A DNA stretch of 64,000 nt from Verrucomicrobiota bacterium (GCA_039815375.1 JBCBZJ010000004.1:192920-256919); one strand, 5' to 3'; positions 23,202 to 53,143 are shown, counted from the first letter of the stretch. The notes: generated by a model from the letters alone, not told the origin. Translations and numbers: made by a program.

Positions 23202-24977
23202 TTATTTTGCAATCGATTCAGCACCTGTTTCCAAGTCAATCCGGCGACCAATCAAACGTAGCAACACAAATGCCAGGATTGGGAAAAGAAAATAGAATAC
23301 AATCGGGGGCAGCCCAAAGAAGGCAATCAAGGTGTATCCGCTCACACTGGCTAATAACATAGTGCTTAGCGCATAGGGTAACTGCGTCGCCACATGGTGC
23401 AAATGGTCGCAACCTGTCGCCAATGAAGAAAGGACCGTTGTATCTGAGATTGGACTACAGTGGTCTCCAAAAATCGCACCATCCAAAACCGCAGCAGCAG
23501 TCAGCACAAAGATCATCATACGGGTAGGATCGTCCGCACCTAAAAGCCAAACGAAAGGCAGCATAATAGGAATCATCACACCCATCGTGCCCCAGCTCGT
23601 GCCCATGGCAAAGGCCATGCCTGCAGCCAGCACAAAGGTCAATAAGGGGACAGCCGCCAAGGGCAGGGCTTCTCCCACCATCGAAAGTAGATAATAGCTC
23701 GTGCCGAGCTCTTCACATATCGTTTTCATCGCCCAGGCCATCGGCAAAATGAATAGAGTCACGCCAAGTGTCGGCAAGGAGCCGGCATAGGCGCCGACAG
23801 CCTCGACAGGCTTGAGCAACCGCTGAAAAACAGGCATTAGAATTGCCACGATACCTCCCGCGACTGCAGCCCAGAAAAGCACTAACGGCACACCTGGACC
23901 ACCGTCGGGAAGACTTGGATCGTAGACCGTGATCCCGAAGATCTCACGGAGTCCGATCAAGGTGAAAAACTCGGGGCTCGAGCCATCACGCATCAAACGG
24001 CTAGAGCCCACATATAGAATGCCACCCAGCACACCAAACAAGACCGTCGCCAGAGGCACACCGGCATTCCACCAGCGAAAGGGAGTTCCTGCCGGTGGCT
24101 CGAGCCGCTCAGGATTTTCTCGAAGCAATGGCCTTGCATCCGGCGCAACCACTTGTCCTGTCTCTCGGGCTCTGCGCTCGGCTTTAAGCATCGGGCCGAA
24201 ATCGCGTCGCGTCATGATGTTAATGATTAGGAAGATCAAGGTGCCCCAACAGTAAAAACGCACCGGAAGCATTTGCACAAAAACAGCGTAGCCTCCCGTC
24301 TCCATTCCCAAGGACTGTACCGTCGAGCCCAAGAGCCAGACCTCGTAAGCGATCCAACTGGAAATCACGGCAAGACCGGCAATCGGCGCCGTCGTTGAAT
24401 CAACGATGTAGGCCAACTTCTCCCGAGAAATTTTGAAGCGGTCCGTCAAGCTCCGCATGGTTTGCCCAACCACAATAGTGTTCGAATAGTCGTCGAAGAA
24501 AATCATCAACCCAGCCCCGAATGTGGCAATCTTCGCAGAGCGGGCACTCCGCGCGATCCTGCTGAAGACAACGACCAATCCTTGAATGCCGCCGCTCTTG
24601 TAAAGCACATGGACCATACCGACGAGAGCGAAGAGGAAACCGAAAATATAAAGAGAGAACTGGCCCGTCACATTAGCCCAAAGAAAGTCCCTCACCGAAC
24701 TAGGCACAAAAACCAGCGGGTTGAAACCGAAATTCAAAACCGCCCCGGTAAGAAAGGCGCAACTCAAGGCAGCCACCAGTGAACGGAATGAGATCGCCAG
24801 AACCACGGCAACCAAAGGTGGCATAAGCGATGACCAATGCCCCTGGTCGCCACCGGCTGACTCCGGCAAGGGGCCCGTCGGCAAAAATTCCAGAATGAGA
24901 CAAATCAGCGCCAATGAAGTAAGGCATGCGATCCAGCGCACGGGTTGTCTCCAAAGGTTAGTTCTCGAATTTGCCAT
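23202..24977 (-). CDS. NhaC-family transporter
   Basis: FFDDYSN, SREKLAYIVDST, GTSWGT, FGDHCSPISDTT. Confidence 0.9.
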   Translation of the reverse strand: MANSRTNLWRQPVRWIACLTSLALICLILEFLPTGPLPESAGGDQGHWSSLMPPLVAVVLAISFRSLVAALSCAFLTGAVLNFGFNPLVFVPSSVRDFLWANVTGQFSLYIFGFLFALVGMVHVLYKSGGIQGLVVVFSRIARSARSAKIATFGAGLMIFFDDYSNTIVVGQTMRSLTDRFKISREKLAYIVDSTTAPIAGLAVISSWIAYEVWLLGSTVQSLGMETGGYAVFVQMLPVRFYCWGTLIFLIINIMTRRDFGPMLKAERRARETGQVVAPDARPLLRENPERLEPPAGTPFRWWNAGVPLATVLFGVLGGILYVGSSRLMRDGSSPEFFTLIGLREIFGITVYDPSLPDGGPGVPLVLFWAAVAGGIVAILMPVFQRLLKPVEAVGAYAGSLPTLGVTLFILPMAWAMKTICEELGTSYYLLSMVGEALPLAAVPLLTFVLAAGMAFAMGTSWGTMGVMIPIMLPFVWLLGADDPTRMMIFVLTAAAVLDGAIFGDHCSPISDTTVLSSLATGCDHLHHVATQLPYALSTMLLASVSGYTLIAFFGLPPIVFYFLFPILAFVLLRLIGRRIDLETGAESIAK

Positions 24978-24979
24978 CT

Positions 24980-25516
24980 TTACAACTTTCCCTCAACCGG
25001 CACTTCACGAGTGCGACAAATAACGGCATCCTTGAACTCTGGATAGTCCGAGCAGAGCGTCTCGCGTTCCCCGAGCTCGAAGTCAGACCACTCGAAACCA
25101 GGGACCATCATACAACTCCCGAAGAAGAATCCAGCCTCACCAGCCACCAGCTTGGTGCCCTGCCAACTGCCCATCGGCGTGGTCAGTTGCAACTTCTCAC
25201 CGGCCTCAAGATTGGATCCGATCCTGAGCAGCTCGCCACGACCATTCTCATGCAGAAGTAGCATCTCGGCAGAATCGCCAAGGTGATGGAACCAATGCTC
25301 CGCTGTCGGAAGGCGATGCATCGCTGAAAATGAATCTGCTGTCAGCAGGAAGTAGATCAATGTGCCCATAGGATGGTCACCTTTTTCGGGATAGCGCGAA
25401 CACAGCTCGCTATTCCGGACTCTTAAACCACTCCGCCATACCTGACGGAAGTAGCCACCTTCCTGATCGAGCGGTTCCAAGCCGTAGTGCTCGATAATGG
25501 CCTCTGCTGTCAGCAT
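24980..25516 (-). CDS. DUF985 (cupin_5) protein
   Basis: L.P..EGGYFR, IYFLL, HRL..AE.W.H..G, WQ, VPGFEW.DFE. Confidence 0.88.
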   Translation of the reverse strand: MLTAEAIIEHYGLEPLDQEGGYFRQVWRSGLRVRNSELCSRYPEKGDHPMGTLIYFLLTADSFSAMHRLPTAEHWFHHLGDSAEMLLLHENGRGELLRIGSNLEAGEKLQLTTPMGSWQGTKLVAGEAGFFFGSCMMVPGFEWSDFELGERETLCSDYPEFKDAVICRTREVPVEGKL

Positions 25517-25523
25517 ACGGGCA

Positions 25524-26516
25524 CTATTCAGCCATCAGCTCATCGAGCAAGGCAAAGAGCACAGCAGCCCCGCCGCGGGACGCCTTCACATCATAGATAT
25601 TCTCATCATTCTTACCTTCCTGGCCACCTGCCAAATCACTCACCGCACGAATAATCACCCAGTCGATGTCGTTGATGTGACAGACCTGCCCGATTGCGGC
25701 CGATTCCATCTCTGTAACCTCTGCATTGAACACGTCACGTATCCATTTCCGGTATTCGCGGTTATCCACGAAAACTGATCCGGTCACACCATTACCTCCC
25801 ACCGTGATCGCAGCCATCCGCCCTGGTAGAACCTCGATCTCAGGCATGGATTGAATCGCTGCAGCAGTCGCTTCGAGCAAGCGAGGCGTAGCAGAAAAGT
25901 AAGCAGTCTCTTTGGGCTCAGTCATGCCCTCTTTGATAATCAGCACGTCATCCGGGTGGATCATCCCAAAGGGTTTGTAATTGGGAATGTTGGGATCTTT
26001 TGCTCGGCGTGCGTCCTTTCGACTGAGAAAGCCCTCGTAATAATCCGGCTCGATAAATTCACCCGTTTCATTCGGGTCGGGATTCACATAGACGCTCTCA
26101 TCGTGATAATACCATCGGGCCGGCACAGTCACGTCGCCCGGCTGCAGTTGTGGATTCACCGCGCCCGCGATTCCCATATAGATCACTTCTTTGATCGGAA
26201 AATAGTCGAAGGCCATCTGCATACTCATCGCAGCATTCGCGATACTCATGCCGGTAGCAAAAACGATCACCGGCTCACCCTGATAGGTGCCGATTCGATA
26301 ACGAACTCCCTTGATCGCGAAAACCTCACCCATCTCCGCATTTGGGTTCGCATCGATTGCTTCGACCAGAGCGATCATCTCCGGCTCGTAGGCCACCACA
26401 ATCGCAGTCAAAGGTTCGGCATCAAAGGTCCGGGGACCGTAGGCTGTTTCCGTTGTAGCACATCCAGAAAACCAGACGACGGTAACAGTTATCAGAAGTG
26501 AAATAGTCTTATGCAT
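25524..26516 (-). CDS. MTA/SAH-nucleosidase-fold lipoprotein
   Basis: Lipobox FSG-C; GIAG, PGDV, EMESAA, IRAVSD. Confidence 0.85.
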   Translation of the reverse strand: MHKTISLLITVTVVWFSGCATTETAYGPRTFDAEPLTAIVVAYEPEMIALVEAIDANPNAEMGEVFAIKGVRYRIGTYQGEPVIVFATGMSIANAAMSMQMAFDYFPIKEVIYMGIAGAVNPQLQPGDVTVPARWYYHDESVYVNPDPNETGEFIEPDYYEGFLSRKDARRAKDPNIPNYKPFGMIHPDDVLIIKEGMTEPKETAYFSATPRLLEATAAAIQSMPEIEVLPGRMAAITVGGNGVTGSVFVDNREYRKWIRDVFNAEVTEMESAAIGQVCHINDIDWVIIRAVSDLAGGQEGKNDENIYDVKASRGGAAVLFALLDELMAE

Positions 26517-26521
26517 TTTTC

Positions 26522-27841
26522 TTATTTTTTAATTCGTATGCCCATACGCAGAGTCTTCGAGTCGACCTCGCCCGGGTAAGCGTAATTCTCCATCTCGGGA
26601 GGACTGGTTATCTCGTAATCGTATCCAGAAAGCAAATACCCAAGAATCAAAGGCATCTGGATGCGAACCAAGTTCATCCCGATGCAGGTATGCGACCCAC
26701 CACCAAAAGTGCCGTGTGCATTTCTCGGGTAGTTGTGATCCAACCAGCGGCCAGGATTAAAAACAAAAGGTTCCTCATAGATCGAATTGTCGAAGTGCAT
26801 CAGACTCGCCAGATGCAGGCAGTTTGTTCCTGCGCCTATCGGATAGCCGAGAAATTCAATGTCCTGGGCAGGCACTCGCGGTAGAACCGGAGCCGCCGGA
26901 AACATGCGCTCCGTTTCAAGCAAGGTCGCTTTAAGCAGCGGGAAATGCTTCATTCCTTCGGCCAGCCTATGAGCATCAAAGTCACCAATTTCTTCGCGCA
27001 GCCTGGCAGTCCACTCGGGATTGAGGCTAAGCGCATGCAAGAGATAGCTTGTCAGCTTCGAAGTATTGCCAGTGCCGGCAATCAGCAGCAAATACGTATC
27101 ATAGATCAGCTCTTCTTCGCTCAGTGGATCGATCGCAGAACTGGTTTTTTGCTGAATGACTTCGTCGAGTAAATCCTCAGGATCGTCACGTTCCAGTCGC
27201 GCTTTGACGATTTCGTGCAGCTGAGTCAGGACAACGTTTTTCACGTCCAGATAGGAAGCGCGGTTGTAAATCAACTCACGCTCATGCCTCTTCATAAAGA
27301 GTGCACCGATGAAACCTTCTTCAAAATCCACCATCCGCTCGATTTCCTCTTCGGAAAAAACAGCTTTTACTGAGCTGCGTGCCTGCGCCCGTGTCAGCAT
27401 TTTCATGAGCTCATGGTGCGATTCCACTTCCTTCCCTTCGATCGCGGCGAGTCCCTCTTGTATCGTCTCTGCGGTAGCGGCTATACTGGACATGACAGAA
27501 GAATTCTTGAAGCCCTTGTTGAGAAGGCGGCGCTTTCGGCGGTGCGGCTCGCGGTCCAGCTGAGTAAGATGCAGTTCGCTCAACTCCTCGCGAAAAACAG
27601 CAACGGCTTGACCATAGCTCCAGTTGTCCGGCGTGCGCCAAGCCACCTCATTGGCATCGAGTCCGGAAAGGATCACAAAAGTCTCACCGTTCACTTCGGT
27701 GGTAAAAACCGAGCCTGCTTCACGATAAGCCTCGAGAAAAGACTCAGCCGTATACCCACGAAACTGGATCGGCGTTTTCGAGCTCTCTTTACTGTGACGG
27801 ACAAGTTTATCACCCGGAAAGTATGCAACTTCTTTGACCAT
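26522..27841 (-). CDS. cytochrome P450 with atypical I helix
   Basis: FGGGSHTCIG heme loop, ETER (ExxR), FNPGRW; I helix AGTGNT. Confidence 0.92.
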   Translation of the reverse strand: MVKEVAYFPGDKLVRHSKESSKTPIQFRGYTAESFLEAYREAGSVFTTEVNGETFVILSGLDANEVAWRTPDNWSYGQAVAVFREELSELHLTQLDREPHRRKRRLLNKGFKNSSVMSSIAATAETIQEGLAAIEGKEVESHHELMKMLTRAQARSSVKAVFSEEEIERMVDFEEGFIGALFMKRHERELIYNRASYLDVKNVVLTQLHEIVKARLERDDPEDLLDEVIQQKTSSAIDPLSEEELIYDTYLLLIAGTGNTSKLTSYLLHALSLNPEWTARLREEIGDFDAHRLAEGMKHFPLLKATLLETERMFPAAPVLPRVPAQDIEFLGYPIGAGTNCLHLASLMHFDNSIYEEPFVFNPGRWLDHNYPRNAHGTFGGGSHTCIGMNLVRIQMPLILGYLLSGYDYEITSPPEMENYAYPGEVDSKTLRMGIRIKK

Positions 27842-27842
27842 T

Positions 27843-29189
27843 CTATATGCCCTCCTCGTGAACCAACTCAGCGGGTTCGCCCTTTCTTAAATATACCAGA
27901 TTCATAATGACTGCAGTTAGGCCGCCAGTCGCCACAGACGAGCTCAAGACGCCGCGCAAGAGCGGCGGCAGGCTCTCCACCAAGGCATCTTGACTGGGTA
28001 TCCCGAAGGCCATGCCGAGACTGATAGCGAGAACCAATACTTCCTTACTGCCGATTGGCACCTGATTAATCATACGAAGACCAGCTCCAGCGATCAGGCC
28101 AAAGAGCAGCAGAGTGACGCCGCCCAACACCGGTTTGGGGATCATCGAAAAGAACACTCCCGTCTGCGGCAGAAGTGCACAGAGAATGAGAATGCCCGCG
28201 ACGTAAAAACCCACTTGTCGACTGCCAACACCTGTCAGTTGAATAACACCATTGTTCTGAGAGAACGTTGAGGTCGGAAAGGCGGAAATCAGCGCCGCCA
28301 AGGTCGAAGCAATCGCATCCGAAAAAATACCGCCGCGTAGGCGTTTCCAGAAACGCTCACCTGTGGTCTCCATTCCCGAAAGACTCGCCGTCGCACTCAG
28401 GTCGCCGATCGATTCGATCGAGGAAACCAAATAGATAATGGCAAAGGGCAAAAGGAGCTCCCACTTGAAGGCGAGTCCGGCTTTCAGTGGCTCGGGCACG
28501 ATCAACCAGTTGCCCTCTCCAACATCAGGCCACTGCAGCAATCCGAAAAGCGATGCAATGGCGTAACCAATCGCAATCGCCAGCACAGGACCACAAATGC
28601 GAAGCATGGGCTTACCTAAAATCTGAGTCAGCAAAAGAATCCCGACAACGACGCCTGCGAGCAGGCAATTCTGGCTCCAGATGATTTCTCCTTCAGCACT
28701 TGGTGACGCGATGTAGTAACCTGCGACCGGGATCAGTGTCAGACCAATCAAAAGGACGACGATCCCGGCAACCATGGGGGAAAAGAGTCGACGCATACCA
28801 GGCAAAAAGAAAGCGAGTGTAAACTGGAGCGGAACGGCCGCGAGCGTCATGCCACAGGCCAAAGCGATTCCGCCCTCACTGCCTGACCGAAGGAGCAAAT
28901 CGAGGTAGGCAAAACTGGTTCCGTTAACCGAAAGAAGCCCGGACCCAATCGGTCCGAGGCGAGCTGCCTGCAGTAAGGTGCCAACGCCAGCCGTGAGGAG
29001 CGACATACTGATCAGATAACGCTGCATCTCCGGCGCAAGCTCGACCACGGAAATGAAAATCAAAGCTGGCGTAATACAGCCAATAAACATGGCCACGACC
29101 TGCTGCAAAGCCGCCAGTAAGGCTTTGGGTGCAGGCATAACACTATCGTGTGGATAGAGGAGTTCTGTCTTCGGAGAGGAAGCCTGCAC
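27843..29189 (-). CDS. NCS2/NAT xanthine-uric acid family permease
   Basis: NAT signature FSQNNGVIQLTG, ESIGD, PVLGG. Confidence 0.92.
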   Translation of the reverse strand: MQASSPKTELLYPHDSVMPAPKALLAALQQVVAMFIGCITPALIFISVVELAPEMQRYLISMSLLTAGVGTLLQAARLGPIGSGLLSVNGTSFAYLDLLLRSGSEGGIALACGMTLAAVPLQFTLAFFLPGMRRLFSPMVAGIVVLLIGLTLIPVAGYYIASPSAEGEIIWSQNCLLAGVVVGILLLTQILGKPMLRICGPVLAIAIGYAIASLFGLLQWPDVGEGNWLIVPEPLKAGLAFKWELLLPFAIIYLVSSIESIGDLSATASLSGMETTGERFWKRLRGGIFSDAIASTLAALISAFPTSTFSQNNGVIQLTGVGSRQVGFYVAGILILCALLPQTGVFFSMIPKPVLGGVTLLLFGLIAGAGLRMINQVPIGSKEVLVLAISLGMAFGIPSQDALVESLPPLLRGVLSSSVATGGLTAVIMNLVYLRKGEPAELVHEEGI

Positions 29190-29199
29190 AAGCCACTCT

Positions 29200-29216
29200 T
29201 AGCAGGTTCTTTACCA
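29200..29216 (-). promoter_or_regulatory. sigma54-type -24/-12 promoter of the permease-P450 operon
   Basis: Minus strand TGGTAAAGAACCTGCTA, GG-N10-GC, about 12 nt before the start codon. Confidence 0.6.
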
Positions 29217-29246: not shown

Positions 29247-29262
29247 TGGCATGAAAACTGTT
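29247..29262 (+). promoter_or_regulatory. sigma54-like promoter of the nucleosidase-permease-hpt operon
   Basis: TGGCATGAAAACTGTT (GG-N10-GT variant), about 12 nt before ATG 29273. Confidence 0.45.
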
Positions 29263-29272
29263 GTGTGCAGCT

Positions 29273-30043
29273 ATGCCCAAAAAAGCAAAGCGCCCCCTCA
29301 TTCTCGTGCTCAGTGCGATGCCTTCGGAAATCAAAATCATTCAAGAAGCGCTGGTTTCGAGCAAAGCAGGCACTGTTTCCATTTTCCCCTACCTTGGTGG
29401 CACACTGGGTGACTTTGACGTGATCAGCACTGTGACCGGAGTCGGCGTAACCAACGGCGCGATGTGTACTGCTCTCTTTCTTGAAGCGTTCAAGCCTGCT
29501 GCAGTCCTCGTCTCTGGCACGGGATCCCGCTTCAACCCAGAGGTCGATTGCGGCGATGTGATTCTCTCCAAACAGACCATCCATCACGCAGCGGGGAGCC
29601 TGACCGATGACGGAATGGTCTACCGCAAGGTGCGAGGGCCACTACCGGGCATGATGACGAACTACGCCTACAGGCCGGATCCTCATCTATTTAAGGAAGC
29701 CAAACGCATTGCCAAAGATTACACCGCTGAACACGTCACCGTGGATGGCGAACGCTACCGTCCCAAGGTCTATCCGGGCATTGTCACGGCAAGCGATCTT
29801 TTCGGCATCAACCAAGCCAAGATCAATGACATGCGCACCAAACTGAAGCCTGACCTGATGGAGATGGAGAGTGCTGCAATTGCTCAGGTCTGCGACCACC
29901 TGGGCTACCCACACCAGATCTTCCGTGCGGGCAGCAACCGAACGCAACCCGACCCTGGCAACGACTACCGTAAATATGGTCAGAAAGCGGCAGCTTCGGC
30001 AGCACGTTGGACTGTGCACTACTTGAAGGAGCTGAAACTTTAG
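29273..30043 (+). CDS. MTA/SAH-nucleosidase-fold enzyme, Asn variant
   Basis: SAMPSE, TGVG..N, GDV, EMESAA, RAGSN. Confidence 0.85.
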   Translation: MPKKAKRPLILVLSAMPSEIKIIQEALVSSKAGTVSIFPYLGGTLGDFDVISTVTGVGVTNGAMCTALFLEAFKPAAVLVSGTGSRFNPEVDCGDVILSKQTIHHAAGSLTDDGMVYRKVRGPLPGMMTNYAYRPDPHLFKEAKRIAKDYTAEHVTVDGERYRPKVYPGIVTASDLFGINQAKINDMRTKLKPDLMEMESAAIAQVCDHLGYPHQIFRAGSNRTQPDPGNDYRKYGQKAAASAARWTVHYLKELKL

Positions 30044-31692: not shown

Positions 31693-32295
31693 ATGATGAT
31701 TCGAAAAATACCCGATAATTTTAAGCGCGTTTACTCCAAAGAAGACATTGCCTACAGGGTATATAAGATGGCCGGGAACATCCGCCACTGGGTGACCGAG
31801 ACCGAGCAAGAAGATGGGCAGCAAATCCTCGCGATCTGCGTCCTTCGAGGCGGAGTTTTCTTTTTCGCGGACCTCCTCAAAGAGATCCCCTACACTGTCG
31901 AGCCATCCTTCTGCCGCGCGATGAGCTACTCTTCCGAAGACAACACACAGGGCAATGAATTTCGACTCGTGGTCGAACCTGCGGAAATGAAGGGTCGACG
32001 CGTTCTTTTGGTCGACGATATTTGCGACAGCGGCAAGACGCTCCGCAACCTCCACAACTACGCCCTCAAAAATGGTGCCAAAGAAGTCCGCACTGCGGTC
32101 TTGATCCATCGCCTTCACGAAGACTCCGTCTATACGCCAAATTACCTCGGCTTTGAGTATGAGGGGTCCGAGTGGTTCGCTGGCTATGGCATGGAGGACA
32201 AGAACCACAACTCCAATTTTCCCGAAGTCTACATCATCGAGGGTGAATCGGTCGATACCCCCGGCAAACCAACTGCAGCCACCACGGGTGCTTAG
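31693..32295 (+). CDS. hpt: hypoxanthine/purine phosphoribosyltransferase
   Basis: VLRGG..F..DL, SY loop, VLLVDDICDSGKTL, GYGME. Confidence 0.82.
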   Translation: MMIRKIPDNFKRVYSKEDIAYRVYKMAGNIRHWVTETEQEDGQQILAICVLRGGVFFFADLLKEIPYTVEPSFCRAMSYSSEDNTQGNEFRLVVEPAEMKGRRVLLVDDICDSGKTLRNLHNYALKNGAKEVRTAVLIHRLHEDSVYTPNYLGFEYEGSEWFAGYGMEDKNHNSNFPEVYIIEGESVDTPGKPTAATTGA

Positions 32296-41158: not shown

Positions 41159-41185
41159 GCTTTGACCAAGCACTTGGAATGCCAA

Positions 41186-42555: not shown

Positions 42556-42565
42556 ATTGGTAGGC

Positions 42566-46078: not shown

Positions 46079-47059
46079 TTAATCTTCATTGGCCCATTTT
46101 CCGGATAGGATCCCAGCCAAGATGAGTTGCAAAGGATGATAACACATCAATGGAATCAACACTGCAGCCGCATCGACCACACCGGGTGCTGCAGCCAGCA
46201 CAGAAGTCGCCAGTGGCAAACCCGTTGCAAGTGACTTTTGGCTGCCGCAAAAAAAAGCGGAGATTCGCTGGTCACGTGTCGGTTTTACCCAAACCGAGCT
46301 TTTCCAAACAAGGGCACTCACAACCAGCAAGGTAACCACGGTGCTTGCAATCACACCGATCACGGCAAGCAGTCCCAAGCCATCAAGAAACCCAGAGCTC
46401 ACACTATTGGCAAAGGCAGCATGCACGATAAAGAGAATGATCCAGTTACCTGTTTTCTTGGTTCGTCTGGAAACCGCTGCGGCTTTTTCCGGAAGGATTT
46501 TTCGGATAATCTGCCCGATGATCAAAGGCAACACAATGAGGATAAAGAGCTTGGTAAAAAGAGGTGCCAAAGGAATATCAGCCTTGGTTTCAACCGCGAG
46601 ATAAGCCACCGCAACTGTTGGCACCAGAACCACCGCCAACAAGTTGGAGAAGACAGTCGAGAAAATCGCATTCGAGGTATTACCACCCGAGACCGTGCTA
46701 AAGGTCACAGCCGAAGTAATTGTCGTCGGTAGTATAGCAAGTAGCCAAAAACCGAGCCGTAACTCTGGCTCCAAAATGAACGCGAGCGGAATCAACAGAA
46801 TCCCAACAACGAACGGGAAGATGAGGTAGTTCCATGAAAGCACGAAGGCGTGCAAACGCTTGGGTTTGATGCCGGCGGCCAGTTCACTTGTCGGCAGAGA
46901 CAGTCCCTGAAGAAAGAAGATAATCCAGACGCCAACCTTCGTTGTAATCTCGGTCTGAAGGAAGCCACCCTTTGTCGCAGGGCCAGGAAAGAGAATAGCC
47001 AGTCCGACCACAGCCAACAGCCAAAGCGTAAAGGAATGCTTCTTTAGAAACTTTTGCAT
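46079..47059 (-). CDS. bile acid:sodium symporter family (SBF-like) transporter
   Basis: IFFLQGL, LPTT..S, GGN, FCGSQKSLA.G. Confidence 0.88.
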   Translation of the reverse strand: MQKFLKKHSFTLWLLAVVGLAILFPGPATKGGFLQTEITTKVGVWIIFFLQGLSLPTSELAAGIKPKRLHAFVLSWNYLIFPFVVGILLIPLAFILEPELRLGFWLLAILPTTITSAVTFSTVSGGNTSNAIFSTVFSNLLAVVLVPTVAVAYLAVETKADIPLAPLFTKLFILIVLPLIIGQIIRKILPEKAAAVSRRTKKTGNWIILFIVHAAFANSVSSGFLDGLGLLAVIGVIASTVVTLLVVSALVWKSSVWVKPTRDQRISAFFCGSQKSLATGLPLATSVLAAAPGVVDAAAVLIPLMCYHPLQLILAGILSGKWANED

Positions 47060-48291
47060 TGCTCAAGTAGCGCCAGAGGAACTTCCGGCGAGGTGTCTTT
47101 AAAAATAAACTGCATACCAACACTTCGGTGCCCATCCAACCACACAGGAATAGTCAGCGCAGGCTTTTGTGCAATACTCGCCGGTGTGGTTAGCCGTAGA
47201 GTATTTTCACGCAGCTCGGGAGTAGCCTCACTGAGCGGGATCGACGGGCCGGGCGAAACCGGCATCGCCAGAAAATCATAAGACTCAAAGTAACGGTTAA
47301 ACCATACCCGAACTGTGTCCCAAGTAGCCAGCGCCCGCTCGACTTCTTCTTCCTTCCATATCTTCGCACGTTCAATTCGGTCTTTTACCACCGGATCGTA
47401 AAGGCTGCCGTGCGCATCAAGCCAGTCTTGATGGATGATGTAGGCCTCTCTACTCTGAAGAATGTTAAAAGCCTTCTGGCAAGCTGGCAGTATCGACTTC
47501 AGCTCCGCAGCAAGCTCGCTTTCCGGAATTCCCCATCGCTTCGCGGCGTTCTTTAGGGCTGCGTAGGTGTCCGCTGCAACCATATCCTCGGGTAGAAAAA
47601 AAGTTCCGTGCACACCGCTCGGCTGATCGAAAGATTCGCCGTCAAACCATGAGAGTATGACTTGCGCCATTTCCTCGGCAGTGCGGGTAAACCAACCCAT
47701 AGTATCAAAACTTGGAGCCAGCGGAAAGCCACCCTCCATGAAATAGTTCGGAGCCCAGCGGATTCCATAAACGCCGCACCAGGCTGCAGGCAAACGAATC
47801 GAGCCACCCGTATCCGTGCCGAAGGCCAGCGGCAAGTAACCTGCTGCGACCAGATGGGCGGAACCACTACTCGAGCCACCGCTTAAGCAGTTCTCCAAGT
47901 ATGGGTGCGGGCAATTTCCATAGTGAGGGTTTTCGCCGGAAAGACCATAAGCAAACTCATTCATCTGCGCCTTCGCGGCGCAACTAGCGCCGAGCTGGTC
48001 TAGGCGCTGGACAAGTTCCGAGTCGCACTCGGCAAGCTCGGATTTTAAAAACGGTAAAACAGAAGAACTGTGTGTGGGCACACCATGAATTTTGAAAAGA
48101 TCTTTCAGCCCGAAGGGCACACCACCGAGCGGCCCATCCAAAGGCATTAAGCCGGAACTCAAATCTGAACTCACTACAGACGTATCCGTTTTTTCGATAC
48201 ACTTATCAAGATTCAGCCGAACTAAGCGACTCCATTCGACCGGATTCTCCAACGCCAAGCTTTGCCATTCATCTATCGAGAGTATTTTCAT
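47044..48291 (-). CDS. amidase signature enzyme (AtzE/HpxY-like)
   Basis: KDLF, GGSSSGS, GTDTGGSIRLPA. Confidence 0.88.
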   Translation of the reverse strand: MKILSIDEWQSLALENPVEWSRLVRLNLDKCIEKTDTSVVSSDLSSGLMPLDGPLGGVPFGLKDLFKIHGVPTHSSSVLPFLKSELAECDSELVQRLDQLGASCAAKAQMNEFAYGLSGENPHYGNCPHPYLENCLSGGSSSGSAHLVAAGYLPLAFGTDTGGSIRLPAAWCGVYGIRWAPNYFMEGGFPLAPSFDTMGWFTRTAEEMAQVILSWFDGESFDQPSGVHGTFFLPEDMVAADTYAALKNAAKRWGIPESELAAELKSILPACQKAFNILQSREAYIIHQDWLDAHGSLYDPVVKDRIERAKIWKEEEVERALATWDTVRVWFNRYFESYDFLAMPVSPGPSIPLSEATPELRENTLRLTTPASIAQKPALTIPVWLDGHRSVGMQFIFKDTSPEVPLALLEQCKSF

Positions 48292-49637
48292 TTTTTGAAT
48301 GCCTGACCTGCAATGAAACGACCGCGCGGCAGACCAACAACCCTGCCATCCACAATTACCGGACTACCTCGCAACCAAGTTTGACGAATCGCCAACTCCA
48401 GATCGAAACCGAGGTAAACAGAGATCGGGTGCCGATAGAGCAGCTCGGCAGATTTCACCGCGTGTTGCGTATCGAGTGCCTCGACAAGAAAGAAGTCGGC
48501 ATCGGAACCGAGCGAAAGACGCCCCTTATTCGCAAGTCCAATCAAGTCAGCTGGCGTGGTTGCGAATGCATCCTGCAAAGACTGGAGCCGTTCGGAATCA
48601 CCCAGACTGAAAAGATCGATTAAAAACGGAAGTCCGTGCTGAATCCCTGAAATCCCACCCCAAGCATCGTAGAAACTTTTACCGTCTTTCAGATCAGGCG
48701 AACTGGGCGAATGGTCCGATCCAATGGTGTCGATCCCGTGACTGACCAGCATGTCGAGCATGGCTTCAACCGTTGCAGGTGGCCTCAAAGGCGGCGCGCA
48801 TTTAGCATTTGGACCGACGGATTCGGCTTCTTCGGAAGAAAGGAGCAAATAGTGCGGACAGGTTTCGCAGACCAGATCGACCCCTTTCTCCTGCGCATCG
48901 TGAATCACTTCCAAAACCTCAGGCGCGCTAACGTGGACAATCGTGATCGGGCAGCCCGTTTCAATAGAAAGCTCAATAGCCATGCTAACCGCGGAGATTT
49001 CCGATTGAACCGGTCTCGAAGCCAGCCAATCCACTGCGCTCTCCCGACTCGGCAGCGCAGCAGCAGCGGCATCCAGCACATCAGGGTCCTCCGCATGCAA
49101 AGCTAGCCGCAGTCCAGTCGGAGCGATCCGCTGCATCGCATCGCGCAAGGTCTGCTGGTCGGAATTATCGAAGGCATTGTTGCCACTGGGCGACATGAAA
49201 GCCTTGAACCCCATCACACCTGCCTCAGCCAGCGGCACAAGATGCTCGGCATTTCCTGGCACCACACCGCCCCAAAGCCCGAAATCAACATAGGTTTTTT
49301 TCGAGACTGCCGCGAGTTTTTCCTCTAGCGCCGCGACATTGACGGTGGATGGAAGATTATTCAACGGCATGTCAGCAACATAGGTGACCCCCCCGGCTGC
49401 AGCGGAAGAGCTCCCGGTTTCGAAGCCTTCCCAATCCGTCCGGCCCGGCTCATTGAAATGAACATGCAGATCGACTGCTCCAGAGAAACAATAAGCGCCC
49501 GCACCATCGATTTCCGTTTTCGCACTTAGGCCAACAGCCTCACGACCAACAATCTTTCCGCCTTCAATGACAAGATCCGACTCCTGCCAAAGGCCCATCT
49601 CCAATAATTTGATATCCCTGACAATCGCTTCGACCAT
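48288..49637 (-). CDS. allB: allantoinase
   Basis: DLHVHFNEPGRTDWEGF, GFKAF, HAED, ETCPHYL, KCAPPLR, SDHSP. Confidence 0.93.
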   Translation of the reverse strand: MVEAIVRDIKLLEMGLWQESDLVIEGGKIVGREAVGLSAKTEIDGAGAYCFSGAVDLHVHFNEPGRTDWEGFETGSSSAAAGGVTYVADMPLNNLPSTVNVAALEEKLAAVSKKTYVDFGLWGGVVPGNAEHLVPLAEAGVMGFKAFMSPSGNNAFDNSDQQTLRDAMQRIAPTGLRLALHAEDPDVLDAAAAALPSRESAVDWLASRPVQSEISAVSMAIELSIETGCPITIVHVSAPEVLEVIHDAQEKGVDLVCETCPHYLLLSSEEAESVGPNAKCAPPLRPPATVEAMLDMLVSHGIDTIGSDHSPSSPDLKDGKSFYDAWGGISGIQHGLPFLIDLFSLGDSERLQSLQDAFATTPADLIGLANKGRLSLGSDADFFLVEALDTQHAVKSAELLYRHPISVYLGFDLELAIRQTWLRGSPVIVDGRVVGLPRGRFIAGQAFKK

Positions 49638-49644
49638 AATTACG

Positions 49645-50901
49645 TTACAAGGTTTGGTCCAAATCAAGCACCGCGTCGACCATCGTTCGAAGCGCGAGCA
49701 TACAATCCTCATCGCTGGCAGATTCATCAGGATGATGGCTCAAGCCATCGCGACAGCGCACGGCAAGCACACCGACCGGACAAACCTGCGCGATCTTCAT
49801 ACTATCATGCCCGGCTCCGCTAAAAAGTTCGATCGCAGCCTCTTGATACTTTTCGCTGTGACGGCATAGAAGCGCGGACAAATCAGGATCGCAGCCTACA
49901 TCGATCGCTTCATGCACAACCCGGTAGCGGTATTCCAACCCACTACGCCTAGCGATCGCCTCAAGAGAGTCCACCAAGGCCTTGTGCGAGAGTTCGAGTC
50001 CCCGCTGATGCGGACGCCGCAAGTCAATCGTGAAGCTCACCCGTTCCGGAATCACGTTGGTCGCGTTGGGCTTAACATTGAGTTGCCCCACCGTGGCGCG
50101 GATCCGGTCGTCACTTTTACAAAGTTCATTCACGACCTGAACCATTTCGCAGGCGAAAGGAAGCGGATCTTTACGCAAACGAGCAGGCGTCGTTCCTGCA
50201 TGGCCCGCCTTGCCAATCAAATCGACTTCGGCACGCAGTTGCGCTGCAATACGGCTGAAAACTCCGAGCCCCCGGCCCGTGGAGTCAAGAACCGGCCCCT
50301 GCTCGATATGCGCTTCCAGGAAACGGTCTTGCGGTCGGATCAAAGGTTCGGCGTTGAGTAGCTCGTCGACGTCTTCCGCACGGTCCACCAGCCACTCGCC
50401 AAGGGTCTTGCCATATTCATCAGGCATATGCAGCCAATCCGGCTCGAACTGTCCGCTAACATAGGCGCTCCCCAGAAAGGTGCTCTGAAAGCGCACACCC
50501 TCCTCATCGCAAAAGGCATGCGCTGCAAGATCATGCTGCATCTGCGTGCCCGACGATTCGATGGTCTCGACCACCGCCAGCGCGAGCAGCACCCCAAGCA
50601 CCCCATCATAAGCGCCAGCGTTGATCACGGTATCATAATGAGAACCCAGATGAATGATCGGCGCCTCCGAATTACTATCCGCTGCCCGCAAAAAGCCCGA
50701 AACATTAGTTAGCGCATCTTCACGCACCTGCATACCGGCAGTCTGCATCCAACCTCGAATCCGATAAGCAGCCTCCTCGGCAGCAGGCGAAAACAGGGTG
50801 CGCTCCAGCCATTCATCGGTTTCCGAAATCCCCCGAAGAAAGCGCAAACGCCCGAGCATTCGGGTCCCTGCTTCCAGCACTGCCTGCTCTAGCTCCATCA
50901 A
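49645..50901 (-). CDS. allC: allantoate amidohydrolase
   Basis: GSHYD, YDG.LG, EEGVRF, EAHIEQGP, HAGT, SGAGHD; operon context. Confidence 0.88.
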   Translation of the reverse strand: MMELEQAVLEAGTRMLGRLRFLRGISETDEWLERTLFSPAAEEAAYRIRGWMQTAGMQVREDALTNVSGFLRAADSNSEAPIIHLGSHYDTVINAGAYDGVLGVLLALAVVETIESSGTQMQHDLAAHAFCDEEGVRFQSTFLGSAYVSGQFEPDWLHMPDEYGKTLGEWLVDRAEDVDELLNAEPLIRPQDRFLEAHIEQGPVLDSTGRGLGVFSRIAAQLRAEVDLIGKAGHAGTTPARLRKDPLPFACEMVQVVNELCKSDDRIRATVGQLNVKPNATNVIPERVSFTIDLRRPHQRGLELSHKALVDSLEAIARRSGLEYRYRVVHEAIDVGCDPDLSALLCRHSEKYQEAAIELFSGAGHDSMKIAQVCPVGVLAVRCRDGLSHHPDESASDEDCMLALRTMVDAVLDLDQTL

Positions 50902-51254
50902 CTTCCGCGGTAGGTCGAGTAGCTCCAGGGCGAGGTTAGAAGCGGCACATGATAGCTCTCTCCAGCAATTAGACTGACCTGTAGCACAACTTCATCAAGA
51001 AAGGCCGGCTCTGGCAGCTCCACGCCAAGTCCGCCGAAATAAGCGCCCACGTTAAAGGTGATCCGGTAGCTCCCGGTTTTCAGAGACTCACCGGTCAGTA
51101 GAGGTGAGTCCGTACGACCGTCTTTGTTGGTTACCCCGCTGCCGAGCCTTGTCCAGCCTTCGGCACCGGCTGCAAACTGAAGAGTCCATTCGACCCCGCA
51201 GGCCGGACACCCGTGATAGGTGTCGAGAACATGTGTGCTAAGTTTTCCACTCAT
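50898..51254 (-). CDS. uraH: 5-hydroxyisourate hydrolase
   Basis: LSTHVLD, DGR, YHVPLL, C-terminal YRGS. Confidence 0.96.
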   Translation of the reverse strand: MSGKLSTHVLDTYHGCPACGVEWTLQFAAGAEGWTRLGSGVTNKDGRTDSPLLTGESLKTGSYRITFNVGAYFGGLGVELPEPAFLDEVVLQVSLIAGESYHVPLLTSPWSYSTYRGS

Positions 51255-51274: not shown

Positions 51275-51787
51275 TCAGGCCTCGCGAACGAGCCCATTGA
51301 TTCGATACCAGCCGATCCGCGCGATCTGGTAGAGGCAGGCGAGCCGCTCGGCATCTGCGGTCGATTGACAACGCAACTCCAACAGCGGCAGGACATCCTC
51401 TGCCGGGTGCTCCGTCACACAAAGGATAAAAGGGTGCCCGAATCGCTCGCGGTATACTGCCAATGCCACACGCATCCGCTCCAACACCTCAGGTGCTAGT
51501 GCCGCAAAGCCCGCCCGCCTTTGCTCAGCCTGCGAGAAATCCGTCAACTTCGGCAGCTGGTCCAACTTCGCAGCAAGGTCCGGGTGTGCTTTGATCAATT
51601 CCATCTGAATCTCCGGATCTGCACCATAGAGTGCCGATTCACAGGCCGCCTGCAACACCTTCAGGTTGGCGAAGGGCCTTGCCCCGGCAACCGCTTCCAC
51701 CACCCAGGGTGAATGCTCATAGACCTGCTCAAGCGTAGAGACAAATTCAGACGCCGACAAAGTATCCAGTTTTTCGAGGGTAATCAC
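51275..51787 (-). CDS. uraD: OHCU decarboxylase
   Basis: YEHSPWV, AHPDLA, S..EQ..AG, Y.ERFG.PFI; GTG start inferred. Confidence 0.93.
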   Translation of the reverse strand: MITLEKLDTLSASEFVSTLEQVYEHSPWVVEAVAGARPFANLKVLQAACESALYGADPEIQMELIKAHPDLAAKLDQLPKLTDFSQAEQRRAGFAALAPEVLERMRVALAVYRERFGHPFILCVTEHPAEDVLPLLELRCQSTADAERLACLYQIARIGWYRINGLVREA

Positions 51788-51794
51788 TTCAATT

Positions 51795-52736
51795 TCAAAT
51801 TTCAACCAGGCTATTCCCGTCGCTCGGATGCAGGCGGTCGGCAAAATTATAAGCAATTATCCCGCCTAAAACCAAGACCACACCCACAACCTTTAGCAGG
51901 TTCAAAGATTCGCCCAGCAGGAGAGCCGAGCTGAAGACTGCGATCGGCAGCTCGACCGAGGCCAGCACCCCACCTAAACTCCCTCCCGTAATCGGTAGAC
52001 CCTTCATCAGGGTGACTACAGGAAGCGTTTGGCCAATCACCCCAAGCAAGATCGCGAACAGAGCAAATTTCATCCCATTATCTCCCAGCTCAAACCAGAG
52101 CCCAGGGTTGATCGCCAGAATCACCAAACAGCCAAGCAAGCCAATTCCCGAGACCGTAAAGGACCGAAAGTATAGAGTCGTGTAACCAGCAACCCTCGGT
52201 GTGAGGATAAACACCATCGCATACGAGGCAGCAGCCCCGACCGCAGCGCCTGCAGCGGCCAAAATCCCCGGCTCCCGAAAGGTTGACAGAAGCTCCGTCG
52301 TAAACACCGCACCCAACAGAATCAAAGCGATTGCACTGAGCTTGGTTAGGCTAAAGCTTTGATGCCCCATCGCGACCGAAACCCCATAAACCACTGGCAG
52401 ATAGAGAAACATCAGCGTCGCAGCGATAGCTACCGGGCCCAGACTGAAGGAAAGAAAGAGAAAGCTCCCCACCCCGATCGTCGCACCACCGATAGCCGAA
52501 AGCTGCAGCCACTCTCCCATCGTGCGTGGGCGCACCGGATCGAAGAAACGCTTTGCAAAAAACAGGAAGAAGACCGTTGCAAATAACACCTCCACCAGGA
52601 AGACCTGAATAAACGAAGCTCCTAACCCGAAGGCATATTTAATCAGGATGCCGTGAAAGCCCCAACAGGACCCACTCGTCAGCACGAGGCCGATCCCCCG
52701 CCAACGCTGGGCTTGCGGTTGCGTTCCCTCCATCAA
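51795..52736 (-). CDS. EamA/DMT-family transporter
   Basis: About ten TM segments, WG motif, LLGE.L. Confidence 0.85.
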   Translation of the reverse strand: MMEGTQPQAQRWRGIGLVLTSGSCWGFHGILIKYAFGLGASFIQVFLVEVLFATVFFLFFAKRFFDPVRPRTMGEWLQLSAIGGATIGVGSFLFLSFSLGPVAIAATLMFLYLPVVYGVSVAMGHQSFSLTKLSAIALILLGAVFTTELLSTFREPGILAAAGAAVGAAASYAMVFILTPRVAGYTTLYFRSFTVSGIGLLGCLVILAINPGLWFELGDNGMKFALFAILLGVIGQTLPVVTLMKGLPITGGSLGGVLASVELPIAVFSSALLLGESLNLLKVVGVVLVLGGIIAYNFADRLHPSDGNSLVEI

Positions 52737-52752
52737 AACGTATCGGCTCCAG

Positions 52753-53115
52753 CTAATTCTCGAAGACCTGATCCTCGAATTTCCAGGGTGGTGAGCAAGT
52801 TACGATCATGACCAGATCTGCATCCTTCGGATTATGGATCGTGTGCCACTGCCCCGGATGAATCGCCACCGCCTGCCCCGGCTCAATCGGCTCGTCCACC
52901 CCATCAAGGTGCATGATCCCCGACCCTGCCACGATATGATACGTCTCTTCACTCTCTAAATGATAGTGCTTCTTCACAGTGACACCTGCCGGAATCCGAA
53001 TCTCTGCAATGCTCAGGTTTTTCAAACCCGCCATATGCGGCCCCATAAACTCTTTCGCAATTGCGCGGTCCTCCGCCACGTAGTCCTCACAATCCTTGAT
53101 CGTAACAATTTCCAT
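52753..53115 (-). CDS. monocupin protein
   Basis: HYH...EE.Y...G.G and IHPGQWH metal motifs. Confidence 0.88.
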   Translation of the reverse strand: MEIVTIKDCEDYVAEDRAIAKEFMGPHMAGLKNLSIAEIRIPAGVTVKKHYHLESEETYHIVAGSGIMHLDGVDEPIEPGQAVAIHPGQWHTIHNPKDADLVMIVTCSPPWKFEDQVFEN

Positions 53116-53126
53116 GTGACCAGCCC

Positions 53127-53143
53127 TAGCAGGTTTCCAGCCT
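53127..53143 (-). promoter_or_regulatory. sigma54-type promoter of the cupin-uraDH-allCB operon
   Basis: Minus strand AGGCTGGAAACCTGCTA, GG-N10-GC, 13 nt before ATG. Confidence 0.55.

What the first reader, a model, noticed from the sequence alone, without database searches (positions are those of the whole stretch)
23202..53143. Purine/nucleoside scavenging system whose oxidative steps lack any known enzyme in the window
Seen: five transcription units encode uptake (two NCS2-type permeases), base release (two nucleosidases, LOG), deamination, salvage (Hpt) and the lower pathway UraH-UraD-AllB-AllC. Established: UraH and UraD act on the product of urate oxidation, which needs Uox, HpxO/HpyO or PuuD, and urate normally comes from xanthine dehydrogenase or HpxDE. 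None of these is in the 64 kb. The only oxygenases in these operons are a P450 and a 2OG-Fe(II) dioxygenase. Inference: they form an undescribed route for oxidising (hypo)xanthine or urate, or for dealkylating modified purines to use as a nitrogen source.
Basis: partly seen in the sequence, partly recalled or inferred. Interest (0 to 1): 0.85.

Follow-up and report, generated by a model that had tools for sequence, protein, structure and literature searches.

The report
Purine scavenging with unstudied P450 family
This bacterium's purine-breakdown genes are not missing their oxidation steps, because genes for the standard xanthine dehydrogenase and membrane urate oxidase sit elsewhere in the genome, but the cluster also carries an unstudied cytochrome P450 and a thymine-hydroxylase-like dioxygenase that stay beside purine genes in many relatives and likely strip methyl groups from modified purine bases so they can be used as nitrogen.

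Summary
The genes listed are present. The main inference fails. Contig C27 of the same genome carries an intact guaD-xdhC-xdhA-xdhB-puuD-pucG-8-oxoguanine-deaminase operon, with molybdenum-cofactor genes on C14. In relatives the two oxygenases accompany XdhB and PuuD rather than replace them.

The second idea survives. The P450 belongs to an uncharacterised, mainly verrucomicrobial family (about 20% identity to solved P450s; Gly-Asn replaces the acid-Thr pair). It lies within 3 kb of nucleobase genes in 41 of 50 loci, against a 4.6% background. In 9 of 50, all one clade, it directly follows an orthologue of the dioxygenase, and adenine deaminase follows it. The dioxygenase's nearest solved relative is fungal thymine 7-hydroxylase. 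A sigma-54-like motif 27 bases before start codons marks these modules and nitrogen-scavenging genes.

Best reading (0.55, substrate untested): accessory demethylases feeding modified purines into an ordinary pathway. The scan had flagged this cassette before, plus a sister Rieske module and leaderless sigma-54 promoters on other DNA.

The parts
23202..24977 (-). NhaC-family transporter, last gene of the P450 cassette
   Evidence: PF03553; follows the cassette in 5 of 10 orthologous loci
24980..25516 (-). DUF985 cupin
   Evidence: PF06172; present near the cassette in 8 of 10 orthologous loci
25524..26516 (-). MTA/SAH-nucleosidase-like enzyme with lipoprotein-type signal (likely periplasmic base release)
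   Evidence: PF01048; PDB hits all MTA/SAH nucleosidases; directly after the P450 in 10 of 10 orthologous loci
26522..27841 (-). Cytochrome P450 of an uncharacterised, mainly verrucomicrobial family; heme Cys386 and ExxR kept, I-helix Gly258-Asn259; predicted purine dealkylase
27843..29189 (-). NCS2/NAT permease with the xanthine-urate-type QNNG motif
   Evidence: PF00860; best PDB hit is the uric acid-xanthine permease, 123 bits, motif aligned; directly before the P450 in 10 of 10 orthologous loci
29201..29216 (-). sigma-54-like -24/-12 motif 27 bases before the NCS2 start codon (predicted leaderless promoter of the P450 cassette)
   Evidence: same position in 14 of 14 NCS2 loci, the window included
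29261..30043 (+). cytoplasmic MTA/SAH-nucleosidase-like enzyme (likely start ATG 29273)
   Evidence: PF01048; upstream alignment
30047..31684 (+). multi-helix permease, AzgA/NCS2-like by atlas names only
   Evidence: hydropathy; no HMM or PDB hit
31693..32295 (+). Hpt-type purine phosphoribosyltransferase
   Evidence: PF00156
32260..32472 (-). truncated remnant of a PNP-family gene that is intact and divergent to LOG in relatives
   Evidence: tblastn 44-50% over 42-68 aa; intact in L078 and L079
32553..32568 (+). sigma-54-like motif upstream of LOG-dioxygenase
   Evidence: similar site in L078 and L079
32622..33206 (+). LOG-family nucleotide monophosphate phosphoribohydrolase
   Evidence: TIGR00730 192 bits, over cut-off
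33214..34131 (+). 2OG-Fe(II) dioxygenase (DIOX_N/IPNS fold) closest to fungal thymine 7-hydroxylase; predicted nucleobase methyl oxidase
41162..42538 (+). MATE transporter (likely start 41201; sigma-54-like site 41175-41190)
   Evidence: beside the P450 cassette in 5 of 10 orthologous loci
42557..43513 (+). adenine/adenosine-deaminase-family enzyme; usual neighbour of both oxygenases in relatives
   Evidence: PF00962; best PDB hit 3ou8, 125 bits
43431..44621 (+). alpha/beta-hydrolase fused to a SAM hydroxide adenosyltransferase C-domain, function unknown
47044..48291 (-). AtzE-type amidase (likely oxalurate step)
   Evidence: PF01425; TIGR02715 below cut-off
48288..49727 (-). allantoinase AllB
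   Evidence: TIGR03178 464 bits, over cut-off
49645..50901 (-). allantoate amidohydrolase AllC-like
   Evidence: PRK09290 395 bits, below cut-off; TIGR01879 over cut-off
50898..51254 (-). HIU hydrolase UraH
   Evidence: TIGR02962 over cut-off
51275..51856 (-). OHCU decarboxylase UraD
   Evidence: TIGR03164 over cut-off
51795..52736 (-). EamA transporter; a homologue leads the EamA-(2OG)-P450-deaminase operon of other Opitutales
52753..53115 (-). small cupin, first gene of the lower-pathway operon; sigma-54-like site 53128-53143

Best explanation
The window holds the uptake, base-release, salvage and lower-pathway genes of an ordinary aerobic purine-degradation system whose xanthine dehydrogenase and PuuD genes lie on contig C27, and its P450 and 2OG dioxygenase are likely accessory enzymes that oxidatively remove methyl or other alkyl groups from modified purine bases so these can enter that pathway as a likely nitrogen source. 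Shown by sequence: nucleosidases and LOG are present, two permeases, deaminases, intact guaD-xdhCAB-puuD-pucG, uraH-uraD-allB-allC and an amidase. Inferred from established pathways: adenine/guanine go to (hypo)xanthine, then XDH gives urate, PuuD gives HIU, UraH/UraD give allantoin, AllB/AllC give ureidoglycine, PucG gives oxalurate, and the amidase releases ammonia. Inferred and untested: methylated bases from RNA/DNA turnover (for example 1- or 7-methylxanthine from m1G/m7G, 1-methylhypoxanthine, N6-alkyladenines) are hydroxylated on the alkyl group and lose it as an aldehyde. The P450 is paired here with a xanthine-type permease, which suggests a methylxanthine-like base. The dioxygenase is paired with adenine deaminase, which suggests an adenine-type base. 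A shared sigma-54-like promoter likely switches the set on under nitrogen shortage.
For: Trunk. PuuD: Urate_ox_N 281 bits plus cytochrome c with CxxCH at 332. XdhB: TIGR02965 791 bits, the best-scoring family, intact frame. MoaA/C/E and MoeA on C14. C27 matches the genome in composition.
Profile over 151 genomes. 9 of 11 P450 orthologues have XdhB and 9 of 11 have PuuD; the two misses are 91% and 66% complete. 13 of 14 dioxygenase orthologues have UraD. No orthologue of either lies outside the 21 of 151 genomes with a pathway marker. Five genomes have XdhB+PuuD without either oxygenase, so the oxygenases are accessory.
Fifteen further P450-bearing genomes: 13 have canonical-score XdhB. Six of family f18 have XdhB but no UraD, PuuD or uricase found, which places the P450 upstream of XDH.
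Linkage. NCS2-P450-nucleosidase in 10 of 10 orthologous loci. A nucleobase gene lies within 3 kb in 41 of 50 family loci, versus 229 of 5000 random positions. Partners differ among the supported clades. The dioxygenase lies directly upstream of the P450 in 9 of 50 loci and in 3 metagenome loci. Dioxygenase relatives have purine genes within 3 kb in 11 of 20 genome loci and 45 of 80 metagenome loci, often 8-oxoguanine deaminase, adenine deaminase and, in some, xdhAB itself.
Chemistry. The dioxygenase is closest to thymine 7-hydroxylase, a nucleobase methyl oxidase (186 bits; TM 0.86). It keeps N87, E122, R190, Y217 and F292 of the base pocket described in PMC4787775 (passages). The P450 family has family-specific polar and aromatic conserved residues (W68, W74, Y76, H91, T93, Q94, E174, Y250, N259, H343). 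The genome also has an NdmA-like Rieske oxygenase beside a deaminase paralogue (157 bits).
Regulation. The motif peaks at 27 bases before start codons, and 18 of 39 such genes are purine-module genes, against 59 of 2584 genome-wide. Others include a reductive pyrimidine operon and NMT1_2-family (nitrate-type) ABC binding proteins.
Against: No substrate, activity or expression was tested. Solved P450s are only 15-23% identical and give no substrate clue. The T7H pocket residues other than N87 are partly shared by the next PDB hits, so they are weak evidence, and T7H acts on a pyrimidine. The P450 lacks the acid-Thr pair (Gly-Asn), and no ferredoxin or reductase gene is in the cassette, so normal monooxygenase turnover is not assured. 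Nine of 50 P450 loci have no purine gene within 3 kb, including a whole clade of five that mostly sits beside EF-G. Nine of 20 dioxygenase loci have none, six of them only 4 kb long. The 9 adjacent dioxygenase-P450 loci are one clade, so one event. Related genomes are not independent. G143 (97% complete), G431 (96%), G028 (91%), G043 (81%) and G087 (66%) have UraD with no PuuD or uricase found. Some motif-bearing genes are unrelated to nitrogen (dnaK, clpB). The offset window and score threshold were chosen after seeing the data.
Confidence: 0.55

Rival explanations
1. The oxygenases act on other modified N-heterocycles or on the sugar or side chain: 7-deazapurines/queuine, pterins, N6-isopentenyladenine, or 2'-O-methyl or 5'-modified nucleosides. 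They still serve scavenging but are not ring N-demethylases.
For: Neighbours in relatives include Vut_1 transporters, NUP proteins, SAM hydroxide adenosyltransferase, DUF1152, an aldo-keto reductase and LOG paralogues. The nucleosidases are MTA/SAH-like. The P450 fold neighbours bind hydrophobic substrates.
Against: The most constant partners are base-level: a xanthine-type NCS2, an AzgA-like permease and adenine deaminases. The conserved P450 residues are polar.
Confidence: 0.18
2. The dioxygenase is a true thymine 7-hydroxylase (thymine or 5-methylcytosine methyl oxidation), and the P450 has a separate role.
For: T7H is the top sequence and structure match; 9 of 10 checked active-site residues are identical, with N294 changed to D.
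Against: Its neighbours are purine genes. No Amidohydro_2 gene (the isoorotate decarboxylase family, recalled) lies in the window; the two strong genome hits are on C27 and C12. A reductive pyrimidine-type operon exists on C62. Identity to T7H is only 36%.
Confidence: 0.12
3. One reading: one oxygenase is a parallel, molybdenum-independent (hypo)xanthine hydroxylase or urate oxidase kept beside XDH and PuuD, as Aspergillus keeps XanA beside its XDH (recalled).
For: G143 has the dioxygenase orthologue (69%) next to a deaminase and has UraD, but no canonical XdhB, PuuD, uricase or HpxO over cut-off. In G043 xdhB is followed directly by pucG with no puuD.
Against: G000 has the full canonical set. 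G431 has the same gap as G143 without the dioxygenase orthologue. Six f18 genomes carry the P450 without UraD. Distant dioxygenase relatives sit directly beside xdhAB. The enzyme is DIOX_N-type, not the TauD-type of XanA (family recalled).
Confidence: 0.1
4. The cluster is biosynthetic: LOG plus P450 make or tailor a modified purine signal (cytokinin-like) that is exported.
For: LOG, a P450 and MATE/EamA exporters co-occur.
Against: No prenyl- or methyltransferase lies in the units. Importers, deaminases and the catabolic trunk dominate, under a shared promoter.
Confidence: 0.05

Closest known systems
XDH-PuuD-UraH-UraD purine catabolism (PuuD: PMC4562309, abstract and passages; the SAR11 pathway legend in bioRxiv 10.1101/2024.02.09.579562, passages)
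   Same: guaD, xdhCAB, puuD, uraH and uraD are all present; PuuD has the full DUF989 domain plus C-terminal cytochrome c with CxxCH.
   Different: Split over two loci; the lower part uses AllB, AllC, PucG and an amidase; surrounded by many extra nucleosidases, deaminases and three classes of oxygenase.
Neurospora thymine 7-hydroxylase (PDB 5c3p; PMC4787775, passages)
   Same: Same fold (TM 0.86), metal and 2OG ligands, and most base-pocket residues.
   Different: 36% identity, N294 changed to D, bacterial, purine gene context, no linked isoorotate decarboxylase.
Methylxanthine N-demethylases NdmA/NdmB (PDB 6icp, 6icl; function as named in PDB, pathway recalled)
   Same: Proposed reaction and logic: oxidative N-demethylation to xanthine ahead of XDH; an NdmA-like Rieske gene lies on C37 of this genome.
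   Different: Those are Rieske non-heme enzymes; the window enzymes are a P450 and a 2OG dioxygenase, unrelated to them.
CYP120A1, CYP90B1, CYP51, CYP204A3 (nearest solved P450s)
   Same: P450 fold, heme Cys, ExxR.
   Different: 18-22% identity, acid-Thr pair replaced by Gly-Asn, no known nucleobase substrate; Z-scores tied, so no functional neighbour.
2OG oxygenase beside 8-oxoguanine and adenine deaminases in proteobacteria-like contigs (P. aeruginosa PA0142-PA0148 locus, recalled)
   Same: Same subfamily at 35-45% identity with the same purine linkage; BMP ABC and OmpK neighbours on plasmids.
   Different: No P450; PA0147 had 0 occurrences in the 15 papers listed, so no function can be borrowed.

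Membership tests
PuuD urate oxidase (C27 gene) | full-length DUF989/Urate_ox_N domain | tested here: met
   281 bits, profile 3-291 of 295
PuuD urate oxidase (C27 gene) | C-terminal cytochrome c with CxxCH and a downstream Met | tested here: met
   PF00034; CxxCH at 332 and Met389 in the sequence printed
PuuD urate oxidase (C27 gene) | eight transmembrane helices | tested here: inconclusive
   a crude strict hydropathy scan found 4
PuuD urate oxidase (C27 gene) | urate oxidation activity | not testable with these tools
   needs deletion or assay
Xanthine dehydrogenase XdhAB (C27 genes) | 2Fe-2S+FAD subunit, Moco subunit, XdhC chaperone and Moco synthesis genes | tested here: met
Xanthine dehydrogenase XdhAB (C27 genes) | score over the TIGR02965/TIGR02963 equivalog cut-offs | tested here: inconclusive
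   791.5 vs 849.5 and 341 vs 467: best-matching families but under cut-off; most Opitutales orthologues score 750-800
Xanthine dehydrogenase XdhAB (C27 genes) | active-site motifs (GGGFGGKE Glu, AxRGFG, GEPP Glu; roles recalled) | tested here: met
   present in the sequence printed
Cytochrome P450 | heme-ligating Cys motif, ExxR, P450 fold | tested here: met
   135 of 135 family members; pLDDT 92, Z 33.4 with rmsd 3.5 over 410 aligned
Typical P450 monooxygenase | I-helix acid-alcohol pair | tested here: not met
   Gly in 105 and Asn in 119 of 135 family members; D/E in 21 and T in 22 of 25 outgroup P450s
Typical P450 monooxygenase | linked ferredoxin or reductase | tested here: inconclusive
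   none in the cassette; three unlinked diflavin reductase homologues in the genome; one distant paralogue has one next door (L053)
Thymine 7-hydroxylase | HxD..H, R286, R190, Y217, F292 | tested here: met
   partly shared with other PDB hits
Thymine 7-hydroxylase | N87, E122, N294 | tested here: inconclusive
   N87 and E122 kept, N294 is D; N294A is neutral in PMC4787775
Thymine 7-hydroxylase | thymine oxidation with a partner isoorotate decarboxylase | not testable with these tools
   no Amidohydro_2 gene in the window; activity untested; not filed as a member
Uricase Uox (genome) | PF01014 match | tested here: not met
   0 in G000, 99.89% complete
HpxO/HpyO (genome) | NF033623 over cut-off; strong PF13454 match | tested here: not met
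   best 22 bits vs 500; PF13454 23.7 bits, marginal
HpxD/NdmA-type Rieske oxygenase (C37 gene) | Rieske plus VanA_C domains, similarity to NdmA | tested here: met
   HpxD versus NdmA function not resolved
sigma-54 promoter | GG-N10-GC spacing, conserved position, RpoN in genome | tested here: met
   (14 of 14 NCS2 loci; 0 of 27 control starts); consensus recalled
sigma-54 promoter | mapped transcription start and activator dependence | not testable with these tools
   needs 5'-end mapping and an rpoN mutant

The most novel reading that the evidence does not exclude
Opitutales carry a sigma-54-controlled, largely leaderless regulon for mining modified nucleobases as nitrogen. In it a previously undescribed P450 family with a Gly-Asn I-helix acts as a purine N-demethylase, possibly peroxide-driven since no redox partner is linked. 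A T7H-like dioxygenase and an NdmA-like Rieske enzyme work beside it, each removing methyl groups at different ring positions. This would be a bacterial P450 dedicated to nucleobase catabolism, a type I found no report of in the searches run, and would assign a function to the widespread dioxygenase found beside 8-oxoguanine and adenine deaminases.
Probability: 0.4. Interest if true: 0.75.

Novelty: new variant of a known kind. Interest (0 to 1): 0.5.

Why it matters
How microbes return modified nucleosides and bases to metabolism is poorly known (stated in PMC11898903, passages). The finding names two directly assayable enzymes, a defined panel of likely substrates and a promoter motif that outlines the whole regulon. 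If right, it adds a P450 route to purine demethylation and a route by which aquatic Verrucomicrobia recycle methylated purine nitrogen.

Tried and rejected
Uricase and HpxO/HpyO in G000: not found. The second Moco enzyme on C32 is a distant aldehyde-oxidoreductase type (79 bits) and was not counted as XDH. Complementary distribution of the oxygenases and XdhB/PuuD: not seen. G099 and G136 lack PuuD but have uricase beside uraD. A weak HpxO-like FAD protein in G143 sits among unrelated genes, and the ORF between uraD and uraH in G431 is a glutaminase; both were rejected as urate oxidases. Protein P0015 (P450 plus deaminase tail) occurs once and looks like a read-through or chimera, so it was not used. 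The Amidohydro_2 neighbour in L124 has no PDB hit to isoorotate decarboxylase. Rfam: 0 hits in the window, L005 and L055. The sigma-70 scan was at chance level, 7 found vs 7.8 expected. No RNA holder was listed for 26000-34500. Structure searches of the P450 gave only generic P450s, and a profile search of the AzgA-like permease gave no PDB hit. Three split P450 rows (L143-L145) were dropped from the tree, which is the quick IQ-TREE version with some long branches. Paper searches that found nothing on these enzymes (listings only). The library lacks most subscription journals and no supplements were read, so absence from print is not shown. No complex prediction was run because no binding is claimed.

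Full report
Observation. None matches uricase, PuuD, XDH, a Rieske oxygenase or an FAD urate hydroxylase. The window is G000:C40:192920-256919 of a 3.56-Mb genome rated 99.89% complete. Named best hits are Verrucomicrobia and Opitutales proteins.

The oxidative steps are elsewhere in the genome. A Moco-enzyme subunit and a PuuD-type protein map side by side on contig C27. The locus reads guanine deaminase-like, xdhC, xdhA, xdhB, puuD, class V aminotransferase (PucG-like by family and context) and 8-oxoguanine deaminase-like. All seven frames are intact. PuuD has the full Urate_ox_N domain (281 bits) and a cytochrome c with CxxCH, the architecture described in PMC4562309 (abstract and passages). 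XdhB scores 791.5 on TIGR02965, under the 849.5 cut-off but like most Opitutales orthologues. Moco genes lie on C14. C27 matches the genome in GC and tetranucleotide profile (0.981; median of 39 contigs 0.976). Uricase and HpxO were not found. The two loci need each other: C27 makes HIU and holds PucG, while the window holds UraH, UraD, AllB and AllC (pathway order from established knowledge).

Profiling shows company, not replacement. Among 151 genomes (tally), 11 have a P450 orthologue (54% or more); 9 of these have XdhB, 9 PuuD and 10 UraD. The two without XdhB and PuuD are 91% and 66% complete. Fourteen have a dioxygenase orthologue (53% or more); 11 have XdhB, 10 PuuD or uricase, and 13 UraD. 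Uricase was tested only in selected genomes. Five genomes have XdhB and PuuD with neither oxygenase. In 15 P450-bearing genomes from the order-wide search (two also in the first set), 13 have canonical-score XdhB (some split or partial), 5 PuuD, 1 uricase and 8 UraD. All six of family f18 have XdhB and none has UraD, PuuD or uricase. The P450 thus tracks XDH, not the HIU branch. Against this: UraD without a found urate oxidase occurs in G028, G043, G087, G143, G431 and G521. G043 has xdhB directly followed by pucG. G143 and G431 are 96-97% complete. G143 has the dioxygenase orthologue and G431 does not. Kin are not independent, so these are descriptive counts.

Linkage is strong. All 10 other P450 orthologue loci keep NCS2-P450-nucleosidase. 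A genome-wide scan gave 50 family loci (overlapping the first set), nearly all labelled Verrucomicrobia. 41 of 50 have a nucleobase or nucleoside gene within 3 kb, versus 229 of 5000 random positions in G000. On a quick tree of 56 family rows plus 4 outgroups, supported clades have different partners: NCS2+nucleosidase; deaminase+NCS2+nucleosidase; NUP or AzgA-like; EamA+deaminase; deaminase+NMT1 ABC+DUF1152. One clade of five has none and mostly sits beside EF-G. In one clade (9 loci) the order is (EamA-)dioxygenase-P450-deaminase, usually with a convergent AzgA-like permease; three metagenome contigs show the same. G000 has a second family member on C63 beside a deaminase and an NMT1 ABC system. 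Dioxygenase orthologues have purine genes within 3 kb in 11 of 20 genome loci, six of the misses being 4-kb loci. The wider subfamily does so in 45 of 80 metagenome loci (38 of 57 loci of 6 kb or more), typically 8-oxoguanine deaminase, adenine deaminase or xdhAB.

The enzymes. The dioxygenase's best solved relative by sequence (186 bits; next family 143) and by fold (TM 0.86, 36% identity) is Neurospora thymine 7-hydroxylase. Nine of ten active-site residues named in PMC4787775 (passages) are identical, N294 being D. Only N87 sets it apart from all of the next three PDB hits. The P450 folds confidently (pLDDT 92) but has no solved relative above about 23%. A profile search shows a block of full-length family clusters above about 285 bits, while other full-length P450s start near 220. 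Across 135 members, Cys386 and ExxR are invariant. The usual acid-Thr pair is Gly (105) and Asn (119), against D/E (21) and T (22) in 25 outgroup P450s, and W68, W74, Y76, H91, T93, Q94, E174, Y250 and H343 are family-specific. That these line a polar pocket is inference. No redox partner is linked; three diflavin reductase homologues lie elsewhere. The upstream permease keeps the QNNG motif of the uric acid-xanthine permease.

Regulation. Prompted by note e1-9967497, I scanned for a sigma-54-like GG-N10-GC motif (consensus recalled; RpoN present). A matrix trained on 25 sites from relatives ranks the guaD-xdh-puuD operon 2nd, the P450 cassette 24th and LOG 117th of 3041 ORFs, and glutamine synthetase 14th; many other top hits are unrelated. 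Sites peak 27 bases before start codons (18 at offset 27, 9 at 28, 0-8 at other offsets). Of 39 genes with a site at 25-29, 18 are purine-module genes, against 59 of 2584 genome-wide (window and threshold chosen after inspection). The site is present in 14 of 14 NCS2 loci, 18 of 43 P450 loci, 9 of 35 dioxygenase loci (the window's own dioxygenase has none; its unit's site is before LOG) and 0 of 27 control starts. Other members include a reductive pyrimidine-type operon, nitrate-type ABC binding proteins and a transglutaminase of the ATP-grasp system, but also dnaK and clpB. The spacing implies near-leaderless transcripts, as note e1-982194 reported for flagellar genes in another verrucomicrobial genome.

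Mechanism. Shown: a complete canonical gene set, and conserved linkage and shared promoter motifs of both oxygenases with purine uptake and deamination genes. Inferred: the oxygenases act before XDH on bases that XDH and the deaminases cannot finish. Methylated purines from RNA and DNA turnover are the obvious class, and oxidative dealkylation is the chemistry common to T7H-like dioxygenases, P450s and NdmA (established knowledge; PMC11898903 passages, note both the knowledge gap and P450 N-dealkylation). I give this 0.55; other modified heterocycles or sugar chemistry 0.18; true T7H 0.12; a parallel xanthine or urate oxidation 0.10; biosynthesis 0.05.

Novelty. The trunk is known. The P450 family and its purine link were not found in seven paper searches (listings only), which does not prove absence from print. 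bioRxiv 10.1101/2024.02.09.579562 (passages) supports purine cross-feeding in seawater but does not mention these oxygenases. Verdict: headline refuted, secondary idea strengthened and directly testable; new variant of a known kind; interest 0.5.

Noticed in passing
G000 genome-wide; window 29201-29216, 41175-41190, 53128-53143: A sigma-54-like motif sits 26-29 bases before the start codons of many individual nucleobase-scavenging genes, implying a largely leaderless regulon; dnaK and clpB also carry it.
   Followed up: partly
G143:C92 (L091) and G431:C31 (L284): Family f22 genomes (96-97% complete) have uraD-uraH-allC-allB and pucG with no PuuD, uricase or canonical XdhB found; a conserved metallophosphoesterase lies between allC and allB. 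A real unknown urate oxidase could exist in this lineage.
   Followed up: partly
G043:C337 (L249): xdhB is followed directly by pucG; puuD is absent from its usual place.
   Followed up: partly
G140, G444, G458, G471, G483, G493: Family f18 genomes have XdhB and the P450 but no UraD, PuuD or uricase found; the fate of urate there is unexplained.
   Followed up: no
window 43431-44621: Alpha/beta-hydrolase fused to a SAM hydroxide adenosyltransferase C-domain; mainly verrucomicrobial and recurring beside nucleoside genes (L037, L148, L149, L244).
   Followed up: partly
window 32260-32472 (-): Truncated remnant of a PNP-family gene that is intact and divergent to LOG in relatives.
   Followed up: yes
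G000:C63:46200-54045 (L055): Second P450 of the family (31%) with a deaminase, NMT1-type ABC transporter, DUF1152 and aldo-keto reductase; the module recurs in L037, L050, L052, L054, L148 and L149.
   Followed up: partly
G000:C10:2272-12322 (L245): Cupin, TonB receptor, long LOG paralogue, FAA hydrolase, AzgA-like permease, NUP, Vut_1 and a dCMP-type deaminase: another nucleoside module, possibly for 7-deazapurines.
   Followed up: no
window 35544-40194: A response-regulator/Y_Y_Y sensor pair lies between the dioxygenase and the deaminase here and in L078 and L079, whereas other relatives have the two enzymes adjacent.
   Followed up: no
window 34240-35496 and 44692-45459: ORFs of 418 and 255 aa with no Pfam or NCBIfam match.
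   Followed up: no
L146: A P450 family member directly after an NMT1 binding protein and beside a VanA-type Rieske oxygenase and a TonB receptor.
   Followed up: no
metagenome loci L168-L216: A widespread 35-45% dioxygenase subfamily (His at the N87 position, Glu at N294) sits with 8-oxoguanine deaminase, adenine deaminase or xdhAB; no function was found in the papers searched.
   Followed up: partly
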